Shown: in pieces, positions 22,252 through 40,396 of the stretch
Layout of the letters: every line of letters starts with the position of its first letter
Position numbering within the stretch: position 1 is the first letter of the stretch
Assembly (NCBI GenBank): GCA_965215005.1
Contig: CBDCCZ010000048.1
Span: 1-40,396 of the forward strand
Reading direction: 5' to 3'
From: Kofleriaceae bacterium
Lineage (GTDB): Bacteria > Myxococcota_A > Polyangia > Haliangiales > Haliangiaceae
DNA length: 40,396 nucleotides
The notes under the pieces: generated by a model
What the model was told of the DNA's origin: nothing
The model's input: only the letters and a program-made list of their open reading frames with translations
The model's database searches: none
Translations under genes and position numbers: made by a program

Positions 22252-23232
22252 TTACGCGCCACCGACGGCGCGGCCGGGGGCGGTGATGGCGCCGCCGGTC
22301 TTCTTGGCGTAGCGCTTGATGCTTGACCAGATGCCTTCAAAGCCTTCGAGCTCCATGGTAGCGGCCAAGGCGGTGGCTTCGGAGAACGGCATCGATGCCA
22401 TGCCTTGGGCATCTCGAACGGCGAGGTGCTGTAGGCGACTTCGTTCGCGCTCTTCGGCAGCTTTGAGCTTGGTAACGAGCACGCGATGCTCGGCGGCTTG
22501 TCGGTTGAGGCGTCGACCGATGCTGCCGCGGCCGGCTGTTTCTTCCAAGCGTGCGAGTCGCTCTTGGGCTTGCTCGCGCAGCATGCGCGCAAGCGCAATT
22601 CTAGAGCCGGCGGTCTTCTCTCTCCAATCATGCACTTGATGGCGACGGAGGCGTTTGTAGCGTTGGGTCTTGCCGGCGATCTGATTGAAGGCGCGCTGTA
22701 GCGTGGAGACGGCGCTGGTCTTGCCTTTGCGCTGCGCTTGTTGGATGAGCGTTAGGAGTTGCTGTTGCGTTCTGGCGTTGCGGATGAGGACCTGCCCGAG
22801 GCCCTCGGTTTTGGCGTAGCGAATGGCGCGTGCGGCGACGATGCCGCGGTTGAGGTCGAGGCGGTGGATGCGGTCGTCGAGACGACGCATCTCGTCGCGG
22901 TTGCCTTGGCGCTTGGCCCGCTCGAGCACGGGGCGCAGGTCGGAGACGATTTGCCGATCGAGGCCGGCGATGCGGGCTTCTAGCACCTTGCGCTCGGCAC
23001 GGGCGGAGGCGATGGCGCGGCGTCGACGGTTGACGATCTGCTCGAGGCGTCGGCGTCGATCGATGTCTGTCGATTGCGCTGCGTCGCCTTCTTCGGCGGC
23101 GGCATCGCTGGCGTCACCGAGCATGGCGTCTTCGAGAACGGGAACTGGGCCGCCTTCGAACACCAGGCGCTCATCGCCAGATAACCCAGACGCGGGCGCG
23201 CTTACTTCCGAGTCGAGCTCGATGACTTGCAT
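22252..23232 (-). CDS. Arg-rich coiled-coil putative virion protein, truncated by IS66
   Basis: Acidic N-terminus, very basic helical middle, ends LEGFEGIWSSIKRYAKKTGGAITAPGRAVGGA; the stop codon is supplied by the IS TIR. Confidence 0.7.
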   Translation of the reverse strand: MQVIELDSEVSAPASGLSGDERLVFEGGPVPVLEDAMLGDASDAAAEEGDAAQSTDIDRRRRLEQIVNRRRRAIASARAERKVLEARIAGLDRQIVSDLRPVLERAKRQGNRDEMRRLDDRIHRLDLNRGIVAARAIRYAKTEGLGQVLIRNARTQQQLLTLIQQAQRKGKTSAVSTLQRAFNQIAGKTQRYKRLRRHQVHDWREKTAGSRIALARMLREQAQERLARLEETAGRGSIGRRLNRQAAEHRVLVTKLKAAEERERSRLQHLAVRDAQGMASMPFSEATALAATMELEGFEGIWSSIKRYAKKTGGAITAPGRAVGGA

Positions 23233-23234
23233 GA

Positions 23235-23705
23235 CTATTCACTTCGCCAAAGGTTGAGAGCTAGGAGCACGCCCCAGCGTTTGGGGACGCTCGTGCGCGC
23301 GATGTACTCAGGATGAACGCGAACGCCGAGACGAACGCGGGCGCCTGGACGAAAGACGTAGGCGCCGCGGGGGAAGGTGACCGCCGGCGCGCCTGGTCGA
23401 ATAAAGTACGCAAGCTCGATGGGTGTGGTGAAGTGATCGAAGTTGCGGCCATCCTCGCGCAGGTTGATGGTTACAAACGGCGCGAGCGGCAGGTCTGCTG
23501 TCGGATCTTCTGCGAAGGCGGAAATAGCATAGAGCTCCGCGGCGAAGTCCGCGTGCAGGCTTGCTTGGGTGTCGCCGGTGACCTGGCCGCGGGGCCCGAT
23601 ATCGAAGGCAAAGCTCACCAGATCGATGCGCATGAGCTCCGGTGGCAAGGCCAGCACGTCGCGCGAATGCGCCATGAGCGGCCCGCCCGTGATTGCACGC
23701 ATCAT
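23235..23705 (-). CDS. Putative small single-jelly-roll capsid protein
   Basis: 156 aa with alternating beta-strand pattern (ADFAAELYAISA...VTINLREDGRNFDHFTTPIEL...FPRGAYVFRPGARVRLGV...WGVLL); ATGA-coupled to the upstream gene. Fold is inferred. Confidence 0.5.
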   Translation of the reverse strand: MMRAITGGPLMAHSRDVLALPPELMRIDLVSFAFDIGPRGQVTGDTQASLHADFAAELYAISAFAEDPTADLPLAPFVTINLREDGRNFDHFTTPIELAYFIRPGAPAVTFPRGAYVFRPGARVRLGVRVHPEYIARTSVPKRWGVLLALNLWRSE

Positions 23706-24382
23706 TTGGTCGCAGCCGCCTTGATGAGTCCATGAAGGACGAGTCGGATGGCGACGCCGCGCTCGAGCACCGGTGGAAATGGCGCGATGCCGACGTCGTC
23801 ATTGGGATTGCCGACGCCCTGCAGACCGCGCATCCAGGCGCGGTCGTAGTAGGTTACAACGCCGTCCATGTCGTGGTCGGAGTTGACGTACTGGTCGCGC
23901 GCGAGCTTGGCGGCGGCGGCGGTCGACGGAACGCCAATCACCAGCGTGCCGTCGTTGTCGACGTTGGTCGAGCCAGAGAGCCCATACCCGCTCGGAAAGC
24001 GCAACAGCGGCCCTTCGGCGACGTCCTTGCGGTTGATGCGGAAGGCGAGATAGCCGTTCTCGGCGACCTTCTTGATGTCGCCCGGTGTCATCAGGACGTT
24101 GCCGATGGCGAGCGGAATCTGCACACCGATGCGGTTGAGAATCATCTCCTCGCCCGCTGGCAGCTTGCGCGGGGCGGAGAAGTTGGTGTCGATGAGGTTC
24201 TTGCCTTGCAAGTCGCGAAAGAAATACAGCGACGTGCCTGGCTGAATCGGCCCAGGCGGCAAGAAGACGGTGTCGTACTTGTCATCTTCGCGCCAATCAA
24301 CAATGTGGATCTTCTTGCCAGTAAGCTTATTGAAGAAGACGCCGGGCTCGCCTTTGACGGGTACGAGAGTTTGCGTGCTCAT
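23702..24382 (-). CDS. Putative major single-jelly-roll capsid protein
   Basis: 226 aa; YDTV...YFF...GK..IDTNF...LPAGEEMILNRIGV...GYLAFRINRK...PLLRFPSGYG...IRLVLHG; beta-rich, strong GC3 codon bias. ORF is solid; fold is inferred. Confidence 0.55.
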   Translation of the reverse strand: MSTQTLVPVKGEPGVFFNKLTGKKIHIVDWREDDKYDTVFLPPGPIQPGTSLYFFRDLQGKNLIDTNFSAPRKLPAGEEMILNRIGVQIPLAIGNVLMTPGDIKKVAENGYLAFRINRKDVAEGPLLRFPSGYGLSGSTNVDNDGTLVIGVPSTAAAAKLARDQYVNSDHDMDGVVTYYDRAWMRGLQGVGNPNDDVGIAPFPPVLERGVAIRLVLHGLIKAAATK

Positions 24383-38822: not shown

Positions 38823-39060
38823 GTGTCACCTAGCCTTGCCGCAGCCGTTCAACGGCGACGACGGGCGCATCGAGAGGCAGCTCGACGAGCTCCGTTGCCT
38901 CCTCGCCATCGATCACTCGACCAAACACGCCGCCGTTGATGAACGCTGTCACCTGCACCCGAACCAGCACTCATCGCCAGGCGTGCAGTCGCCGAGCAGT
39001 GCAGGCGGCTTGCGTGTCTTCACCCGCCGTGCATTGCGCTTGCGTTTCCTCTGGTCGAGC

Positions 39061-39513
39061 TCATGCATCGAGCACCTCCCTCACCTCGATGAACACGCAT
39101 GGCTCAACCCCGTCGGCGTACCGCTTGCTTGCGACGATGTGCGTTACCTGCGCATCGTCGATGTACGCGATGCCGGTGAGCGCATCGAGGACGGGACGTT
39201 GTAGCTTGTCCAGATCGGGTTTCACCGTGGGCTGCACGCGCTCCACGCTCTTGGGCCGTGGCAGCGCGAACATCAGCATCACGTGAACAGACTTGCTGCT
39301 CGGCCTCTGGAATCGCCGTCGCGCTTCCCAGCCAACGGCGTCCATCCAGCGCCGCAATGCACCGGCTGCACGCGATCGGCAGCGCATGTCAGCCACCTCC
39401 ACTAGATGCCCGCCAATCCGCGTCTTTGAGCCCTTCGGCAGCGGAACGCCCCAGACGCAGAAACCGATGGGCGTTGACCACGCCGGCGATGGATACGCAT
39501 TGGGCAGGCTCAT
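39061..39513 (-). CDS. rusA: RusA-family Holliday junction resolvase
   Basis: GVPLPKGS...F.LPRPKS...KPDLDKL.R.VLDALTG..YIDDAQV. Confidence 0.9.
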   Translation of the reverse strand: MSLPNAYPSPAWSTPIGFCVWGVPLPKGSKTRIGGHLVEVADMRCRSRAAGALRRWMDAVGWEARRRFQRPSSKSVHVMLMFALPRPKSVERVQPTVKPDLDKLQRPVLDALTGIAYIDDAQVTHIVASKRYADGVEPCVFIEVREVLDA

Positions 39514-40396
39514 CAGGCCACCTCCCGAACGCGCGAGGAGTAGAGGCGGGGACTGATCGACTTCTCCGCGATCGCATCGAGCTCCAGCCGCAAGAGCTTG
39601 AACCGCGACTTAGACAGGCTCGGCTTCGACGTGCCCACGAGCTTGTCGAGTTGCGCCTTGTCGACTATGGAAACCTGCTCGCGCACCTCATCCGCCTGCA
39701 AGCCAGACGCACCGCTGAGCGCTCGCACCGTGCGCGCCAGTGGAAACGTCTTGCGGGCGGTGTTCACGATGCGATAGCGGCGTCCTGCCAGCTCGAGCGA
39801 TTCGACCGAGTCGAGCTTGGCGCGCAGGATGCCATCGAGCTGGCGCTGGCGACTCCCATAGAGCTTGGCCAGCCCCGCCACCGTCTCCCGCTCAACCGCC
39901 ACCCGCTCAAGGTCCTCCGGCTCGGAGGCGACGATCGACACGTTGCCCGCTAGCGCCGTCTGGTAAGCGGAGCAGCTCTGCCGATGCTCACAATACTGGC
40001 AACTCGACTGAATTCGCGGCTCAAACGTCCGCTCCGCCTCAATCTGCCCAACCAATACCCGCACGTACGCAGAGACAGCGGATAGCTCCTCCTCCGTCCG
40101 CGTCGTGGTGATCTTGATCCCATACCGCAGAAAGTGCAGCGTGAGCCGAACCTGGCGAACCCACGGAAACAGCTGCCGAACGGCAATCGCATACACCGAC
40201 AGCTGTAGATTCTCGTCCACTTCTTGCCGACTGCTGATCAGCCGGTTCGTCTTGTAGTCAACAACCTCCACCGTCTCGTGATCAATGCGGTTGATGCGAT
40301 CGATGACGCCGCGAACTGCAATGCCACCAACCGAAGCCGTGAACGCCTCTTCGATCCCCAGCACGCGCCGGTAATCCACATCGCCCTCGCCGGCGA
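39513..40396 (-). CDS. PD-(D/E)XK nuclease, RecB/AddB/Cas4-like (5' end outside window)
   Basis: GIEE.F...VRGVIDRI...VVDYKT...QLSVYA...CQYCEHRQSC; frame is open to the window edge. Confidence 0.9.
   Translation of the reverse strand, partial: AGEGDVDYRRVLGIEEAFTASVGGIAVRGVIDRINRIDHETVEVVDYKTNRLISSRQEVDENLQLSVYAIAVRQLFPWVRQVRLTLHFLRYGIKITTTRTEEELSAVSAYVRVLVGQIEAERTFEPRIQSSCQYCEHRQSCSAYQTALAGNVSIVASEPEDLERVAVERETVAGLAKLYGSRQRQLDGILRAKLDSVESLELAGRRYRIVNTARKTFPLARTVRALSGASGLQADEVREQVSIVDKAQLDKLVGTSKPSLSKSRFKLLRLELDAIAEKSISPRLYSSRVREVA

What the first reader, a model, noticed from the sequence alone, without database searches (positions are those of the whole stretch)
22256..40396. Candidate tailless, membrane-containing single-jelly-roll provirus in a myxobacterium-like host
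Seen: phage-type replication/recombination and lysis genes, but no terminase, portal, HK97 capsid or tail gene. In their place is an operon of basic peptide, membrane protein, two coupled beta-rich genes (226 and 156 aa) and an Arg-rich protein, plus a Cys protease and several TM-anchored small proteins. Known: Halopanivirales (P23-77 VP16/VP17; SH1/HCIV-1 VP4/VP7) use two adjacent single-jelly-roll capsid proteins and an internal membrane. Inference: this is a related but divergent virus lineage. I know of no characterised one in myxobacteria.
Basis: partly seen in the sequence, partly recalled or inferred. Interest (0 to 1): 0.85.

Follow-up and report, generated by a model that had tools for sequence, protein, structure and literature searches.

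The report
Motorless jelly-roll virus in a myxobacterium
This is an integrated copy of a large, apparently undescribed group of tailless bacterial viruses whose shell proteins resemble those of a hot-spring archaeal virus and which seem to package genomes of up to about 100 kb with no recognisable DNA-pumping motor.

The parts
17167..17259 (-). Last stretch homologous to the C1 copy, beyond the IS block
   Evidence: blastn 87% to C1:178329-178421
17257..22256 (.). Nested IS66 elements inserted into the Arg-rich gene; about 440 bp of the element (C1:177889-178328) is missing here
   Evidence: Many 97-99% copies in the genome; DDE_Tnp_IS66/TnpB Pfam hits; junctions
22252..23232 (-). Arg-rich helical protein, truncated (455 aa with a C-terminal hydrophobic anchor in the C1 copy)
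23235..23705 (-). Single-jelly-roll protein 2 (156 aa); penton or minor capsid protein (inferred), or a second major capsid protein
23702..24382 (-). Single-jelly-roll protein 1 (226 aa); likely major capsid protein
24511..25083 (-). Gly-rich protein with acidic tail (190 aa), conserved upstream of the capsid gene; possible membrane-associated subcapsomer protein (inferred)
   Evidence: Homologues upstream of the capsid gene in 20 of 31 loci, 4 of them used to build the profile; no TM segment >=1.5 in the window copy
25093..25248 (-). Basic Cys-containing peptide (about 51 aa); candidate DNA-condensing nucleoprotein
   Evidence: 32% K+R for the 65-aa ORF; peptides of like composition in 10 of 10 viral records, 0 of 1192 host genes
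25257..25791 (.). Variable slot: a 94-aa ORF (+, 25359-25643) here, a RibD_C gene in the C1 copy
25787..26428 (-). Transglutaminase-fold Cys protein (213 aa), invariant C136/H169/D188; homologue of SSIP-1 structural protein gp34
   Evidence: profile to gp34 E 1.2e-21
26425..28050 (-). Large Pro/Gln/Met-rich helical protein (541 aa), core gene of the module; scaffold or membrane organiser (inferred)
   Evidence: Homologues in G001-G005 E 1e-15 to 6e-22, G406, G731; fused to Xer in G360; ESM Atlas gives unnamed viral clusters only
28029..28910 (-). Xer-like tyrosine recombinase with intact R-K-HxxR-H-Y set; core gene of the module, distinct from the element's integrase
   Evidence: dN/dS 0.017
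28970..29677 (-). 235-aa protein with one hydrophobic segment
   Evidence: no family
29928..30485 (-). HTH protein
   Evidence: HTH_17 E 0.0014
30669..30950 (+). Small conserved protein ending in CxC (probably about 66 aa from a later start)
   Evidence: Cluster across the element and G001-G005; G731
30656..31225 (+). Small membrane protein with a PWxCxxC motif (true start probably near 30944); core gene
   Evidence: Cluster across the element, G001-G005 and G360, G406, G731; 3 hydrophobic segments
31222..31881 (+). Lytic transglycosylase with N-terminal anchor (entry or lysis)
   Evidence: SLT E 4e-8
32520..33347 (+). 275-aa helical protein with C-terminal TM segment
33351..34969 (+). ArdA antirestriction gene and SF2 helicase
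35178..36095 (-). Patatin-like phospholipase
   Evidence: E 2e-27
37429..40396 (-). Bro-N antirepressor, sigma70-r4 protein, RusA and PD-(D/E)XK nuclease (the last cut by the contig end)

Best explanation
The region is the virion-morphogenesis and early-gene part of a temperate, tailless dsDNA virus of an apparently undescribed lineage that also exists as circular 54-102 kb genomes. SHOWN: two jelly-roll folds nearest to SPV1; a conserved module; integration at a tRNA by a separate integrase; no terminase, portal, HK97 or FtsK/HerA gene; strong purifying selection. INFERRED mechanism: the integrase excises a circle. The module's Xer recombinase resolves genome dimers to monomers. Basic Cys-rich peptides condense the circle into a nucleoprotein core. 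The 190-aa, 541-aa and small hydrophobic proteins recruit a host-derived inner membrane. The 226-aa protein forms the hexameric shell and the 156-aa protein the pentons, assembling around the core without an ATP-driven motor, as in SPV1. The transglutaminase-fold protein is a virion enzyme for maturation or entry, and the SLT opens the cell wall. The window copy is probably disabled by IS66; the C1 copy is the better candidate for function.
Confidence: 0.62

Rival explanations
1. A divergent Halopanivirales-like virus: the 226- and 156-aa proteins are two co-assembling major capsid proteins (VP17/VP16 type), and DNA is pumped in by an unrecognised viral or host ATPase.
Against: No FtsK/HerA ATPase where the control finds P23-77's. 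SPV1 outranks all Halopanivirales chains. The 226-aa gene itself is duplicated in 5 of 31 loci while the 156-aa gene is kept where the contig extends, and its family is the more conserved (44% vs 29% mean column identity), as expected for a major capsid protein vs a penton (inference).
Confidence: 0.2
2. The lineage is viral, but the copies in this genome are decayed or satellite-like remnants riding on an integrative defence island and make no particles on their own.
For: IS66 truncation in the window copy; the C1 element also carries Rhs, IS3, type I RM, Cap15 and DACNG genes; fewer structural genes than the free genomes; no DNA polymerase; G360 has a reduced version with no 156-aa homologue.
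Against: dN/dS of 0.009-0.037 between two copies with dS about 0.2-0.3 shows long selection on exactly this reduced gene set; the 61.5-kb size is within the range of the circular relatives (54-102 kb). This rival is compatible with the best explanation at the lineage level.
Confidence: 0.3
3. The jelly-roll genes are decoration, spike or carbohydrate-binding proteins, and the true capsid protein is another gene with an unrecognised fold; or the elements are non-viral plasmids.
Against: No HK97, portal or terminase to decorate in 8 circular records; the 226-aa protein is strongly conserved across the module; the best hits are major capsid proteins; the Uroviricota labels rest on few members and plausibly follow the PolA/primase genes (inference).
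Confidence: 0.1

Closest known systems
Portogloboviridae (Sulfolobus polyhedral virus 1, SPV1)
   Same: Top structural hit for both jelly rolls. Per the ICTV profile (PMC8459092, whole text read): SJR VP4 hexamers plus SJR VP10 pentons, inner membrane, circular dsDNA in a nucleoprotein coil. No packaging ATPase (PMC8812541, passages).
   Different: Archaeal hyperthermophile host; about 20 kb; no replication genes; presumably non-lytic. Here: bacterial host, 54-102 kb circles with PolA, primase and endolysins, integration at tRNA. Structural identity only 8-14%.
[quoted passage not shown]
   Same: The only isolate among 50,697 phage records hit by the transglutaminase; gp34 is annotated as structural and matches the family profile at E 1.2e-21. 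Similar layout: helical Gln-rich gp33 before gp34, and gp44-gp47 structural run. It encodes an integrase. No DUF87 hit.
   Different: The capsid link is only a hint: gp46 scores 8.8 bits, and one of 200 shuffles reached 8.2; hhalign probability 10%, E 0.003. gp33 and gp44 show no significant profile match. SSIP-1 has a structural AAA_25 ATPase gp40 with no homologue here. The primary paper was not held; facts come from reviews PMC6356626 and PMC6260650 (passages) and the record.
Halopanivirales / Singelaviria (P23-77, IN93, SH1, HCIV-1, HHIV-2)
   Same: Second-ranked jelly-roll matches; adjacent jelly-roll gene pair; transglycosylase.
   Different: They encode an FtsK-HerA ATPase and two MCPs forming heterodimers (PMC8812541, PMC6414509, passages); no ATPase here; no sequence match of the profiles to VP16/VP17; P23-77 is 17 kb and sphaerolipoviruses about 30 kb (abstract).
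Odin group and FLiP (ATPase-less double-jelly-roll viruses)
   Same: No packaging ATPase; capsid assembly around the genome proposed (PMC5894146, passages).
   Different: Double jelly roll; 7-11 kb genomes. The paper ties motor-free packaging to small genomes, whereas these are 5-10 times larger.

Membership tests
Halopanivirales (Singelaviria) | Single-jelly-roll capsid fold | tested here: met
Halopanivirales (Singelaviria) | Two major capsid proteins forming heterodimeric capsomers | tested here: inconclusive
   Two adjacent SJR genes exist, but roles cannot be assigned from folds; duplication and conservation patterns lean to MCP plus penton
Halopanivirales (Singelaviria) | FtsK-HerA genome-packaging ATPase | tested here: not met
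   DUF87 0 of 9 viral records and none on G005:C5; Walker-A scans; P13 tblastn blank on viral records and the C1 element; P23-77 control positive at E 1.5e-4, under the family cut-off
Halopanivirales (Singelaviria) | Internal lipid membrane | not testable with these tools
   Only hydrophobic segments in five proteins
Portogloboviridae | SJR major capsid protein plus SJR penton of SPV1 type | tested here: inconclusive
Portogloboviridae | No packaging ATPase | tested here: met
   As above
Portogloboviridae | Circular dsDNA of about 20 kb with no replication genes, in a Sulfolobales host | tested here: not met
   54-102 kb circles, several with PolA and primase/helicase; myxobacterial host
Portogloboviridae | Nucleoprotein coil of nucleocapsid protein VP1 | not tested
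   The SPV1 record was not in the collection; basic peptides are only an analogue
Caudoviricetes | Terminase, portal, HK97 capsid, tail | tested here: not met
   only fibre- or decoration-type domains in G001
SSIP-1-like phages | Homologous major capsid proteins (gp45/gp46) | tested here: inconclusive
SSIP-1-like phages | Structural ATPase gp40 | tested here: not met
   No phmmer or tblastn homologue in the loci or the host genome

The most novel reading that the evidence does not exclude
A widespread, high-rank lineage of tailless bacterial viruses (hundreds of 50%-identity capsid clusters) that is the bacterial branch of the portoglobovirus-like state. It encloses 50-100+ kb circular genomes with no packaging motor, by condensing them with protamine-like peptides and tying genome monomerisation (Xer) to shell assembly. 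Its independent duplications of the capsid gene (G004 clade x2; G408/G409 x3) replay the step proposed for the origin of Helvetiavirae.
Probability: 0.45. Interest if true: 0.93.

Novelty: new variant of a known kind. Interest (0 to 1): 0.86.

Why it matters
Single-jelly-roll dsDNA viruses are described as a small kingdom, and SPV1 as an isolated archaeal family proposed to resemble their ancestor (PMC8812541, PMC10848233, passages). Motor-free packaging has been tied to small genomes (PMC5894146). A bacterial family of 54-102 kb genomes with SPV1-like capsids and no motor would widen the group greatly, move the size limit for motor-free encapsidation about five-fold, and supply intermediates for capsid-gene duplication. 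The Atlas taxa suggest such genomes are often labelled as tailed phages. A copy in a closed chromosome (G731) may make it testable by induction, if that organism is in culture.

Tried and rejected
Pfam, PHROGs and NCBIfam name neither jelly-roll protein. A PDB sequence search with the profile gave nothing under E 0.29. tblastn of the 226-aa protein and of a distant G408 paralogue against 50,697 phage records: no match. A single-sequence viral scan found nothing; the profile did. BFVD Foldseek gave only diffuse jelly-roll hits. Profile-profile comparison of the two jelly rolls: no similarity. Complex prediction of the 226+156 pair: no answer, score 0.00; no evidence either way. Alignments A4 and A6 were too variable for pattern scans. 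Sequencing runs: no RNA holder listed; the contigs laid show variants and a join across the variable slot but cannot show excision or expression. The P-loop proteins in relatives were each assigned elsewhere and none is shared by all: D5 and VapE primase-helicases, Dda/RecD, AAA_24/Sak4, Mg-chelatase AAA, DUF3987, and an unnamed 374-376-aa ATPase in the replication clusters of G004, G005 and G406 (MCM-like by my reading, no family hit). G409 had no capsid match but matched locally at E 2.9e-9; it is counted as a distant relative. The continuation of contig C48 was not found in the assembly (8000 bases are withheld). SSIP-1 gp47 vs the 156-aa family: nothing. Charybdis elements (bioRxiv 10.1101/2025.08.03.668216, abstract and outline only) are 4.6 kb and unrelated by description. 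Ten literature searches listed no description of this family; the library lacks most subscription papers, most listed papers were seen as listings only, and supplements of virome papers were not read and could hold it.
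Full report
Observation. The window is the whole contig C48 of a 6.2-Mb genome with 15 MYXO-CTERM matches, against none in 14 controls. The two beta-rich genes match no Pfam, PHROG or NCBIfam family and no isolate among 50,697 phage records.

A second copy gives the whole element. Window 22256-40396 is 94% identical to C1:177888-159188. In C1 the element begins at tRNA-Asp with a tyrosine integrase and an Xis-like HTH gene. 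A 52-bp identical repeat (C1:143649-143700 and 205165-205216) bounds 61.5 kb; integrase-like sequence continues beyond the right repeat, so the island may be composite. It also carries Rhs, IS3, type I restriction-modification, Cap15 and DACNG genes. A six-frame scan finds two Walker-A motifs, both SF2 helicases, and the genome has no Terminase_6N match (92.8% complete). In the window, nested IS66 elements cut the Arg-rich gene from 455 to 326 aa and remove about 440 bp. Across 16 gene pairs, dN/dS is 0.009 for the 156-aa gene, 0.037 for the 226-aa gene, 0.017 for Xer and 0.031 for the 190-aa gene; 11 others lie at 0.06-0.22 and one small gene at 1.0.

Family. The transglutaminase profile added five records: G406 (53.8 kb), G407 (87.9 kb) and G409 (86.8 kb) with terminal repeats, and linear G408 and G410. 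Xer, the 541-aa protein, transglutaminase, the 190-aa protein and both jelly rolls occur together, in the window's order, in G001-G005 and G406. G407-G410 keep the transglutaminase and a distant capsid gene, in triplicate in G408 and G409. The 156-aa gene follows the 226-aa gene in 22 of 31 loci (5 of them built the profile); the other 9 end within 330 nt. The 226-aa gene is tandemly doubled in 5 of 31 loci, and the tree shows this and the G408/G409 triplication as separate events, with long branches flagged (34 rows chosen by me). In host lineages, 2 of 401 genomes of the phylum and 6 of 401 of the class match, G000 included. G360 has a reduced version with Xer fused to the 541-aa protein. 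G731, a single-contig 10.3-Mb genome, has the full core about 20 kb from tRNA-Phe and an integrase, with no Walker-A motif in called genes over 640-700 kb.

What is missing. PHROG scans of 226 proteins of at least 165 aa from G001-G004, and Pfam scans of G005 plus two long G003 ORFs and of 198 proteins of at least 190 aa from G406-G410 (one 847-aa ORF left out), found no terminase, portal or HK97 protein. G001 has two proteins with decoration/fibre domains, and a G003 helicase cross-hits terminase over a stretch shared with primase families. DUF87 is absent from 9 viral records and from G005:C5, Pox_A32 and Terminase_6N from 5, and no P-loop family is shared by all. The DUF87 search and the Walker-A pattern detect the P23-77 ATPase, the former weakly. 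What the genomes do share is short Lys/Arg-rich, Cys-containing peptides: 1-8 in each of 10 viral records, one in the element, none among 1192 host genes and none in the G360 stretch (criterion set afterwards, no tailed-phage control).

Mechanism. Shown: folds, module, integration, absence of recognisable motors, selection. Inferred, by analogy with SPV1 (ICTV profile PMC8459092, whole text): basic peptides coil the circular genome, hydrophobic proteins recruit an inner membrane, the 226-aa protein makes hexamers and the 156-aa protein pentons. The penton reading rests on lower conservation (29% vs 44%), retention when the 226-aa gene duplicates, and an N-terminal helix like that of HCIV-1 VP9 (PMC6414509, passages). 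The transglutaminase has an invariant C/H/D triad, and its SSIP-1 homologue is annotated as structural. The fixed linkage of an intact Xer to the 541-aa gene, fused in G360, suggests that dimer resolution is coupled to assembly; this is a hypothesis. I put the whole model at about 0.6, and a viral SJR-capsid lineage as such at about 0.85.

Comparison. It works like SPV1 but fails Portogloboviridae on host, size and gene content. It fails Halopanivirales on the ATPase. SSIP-1 (membrane-containing, T=49, 44 kb, unclassified; reviews PMC6356626 and PMC6260650, passages; primary paper not held) is the nearest isolate through gp34. Its gp46 is at best a hint of capsid homology, and its AAA_25 ATPase has no homologue here. 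Odin and FLiP lack ATPases but have double jelly rolls and 7-11 kb genomes (PMC5894146, passages). Taxonomy context: PMC12714852 and PMC10848233 (passages). Ten searches listed no description of this family; paywalled papers and supplements were not seen. Earlier scan notes describe single-jelly-roll proviruses in Bacteroidota, one with an ATPase; none resembled this stretch by sequence or place.

Verdict. A real provirus of an apparently undescribed, widespread lineage of tailless SJR viruses with large circular genomes and no recognisable packaging motor. New variant of a known kind; interest 0.86.

Noticed in passing
G360:C62:29530-31947 (L067:9530-11947): Xer recombinase fused in frame to the large helical core protein (805 aa) in a reduced copy of the module that lacks the 156-aa and 190-aa homologues.
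   Followed up: partly
G408:C1:29335-31495; G409:C1:6610-8827: Three tandem paralogues of the capsid-like gene, orthologous pairwise between the two genomes.
   Followed up: partly
window 2-9156 and G000:C1:179236-189629: Both copies lie near a similar pair: a large secreted protein with no Pfam family (1260 and 429 aa in the window; 1481 aa in C1) and an FG-GAP/Rhs protein (Tox-REase-7 tip in C1; two adjacent ORFs in the window). Related Rhs DNA is on C37 and C46.
   Followed up: no
G000:C1:192953-204576: Defence cargo inside the att-bounded element: type I RM with YgjP, then a nucleotidyltransferase-like gene (my reading), Cap15 and DACNG/DACNH genes.
   Followed up: partly
G000:C14:15075-18073 and C6:60964-61081: 74-78% homologues of the element's PD-(D/E)XK region without the capsid module; possibly related islands.
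   Followed up: no
window 11369-17006: Low-GC (53-57%) stretch with a Ser/Thr kinase-WD40 gene and an erythromycin-esterase-family gene next to the IS66 block.
   Followed up: no
L103:24775-25737 (SSIP-1 gp40): SSIP-1's structural ATPase matches AAA_25, not DUF87, so it may not be an FtsK/HerA-type motor.
   Followed up: partly
G409:C1:21465-29418; G410:C1:66674-72748: Distant relatives carry sugar-modification and methyltransferase clusters, and a 2024-aa collagen-repeat fibre.
   Followed up: no
window 25257-25791: Gene-swap slot between the transglutaminase and the basic peptide: different inserts in the two copies, and a contig in run X1 that skips it.
   Followed up: partly
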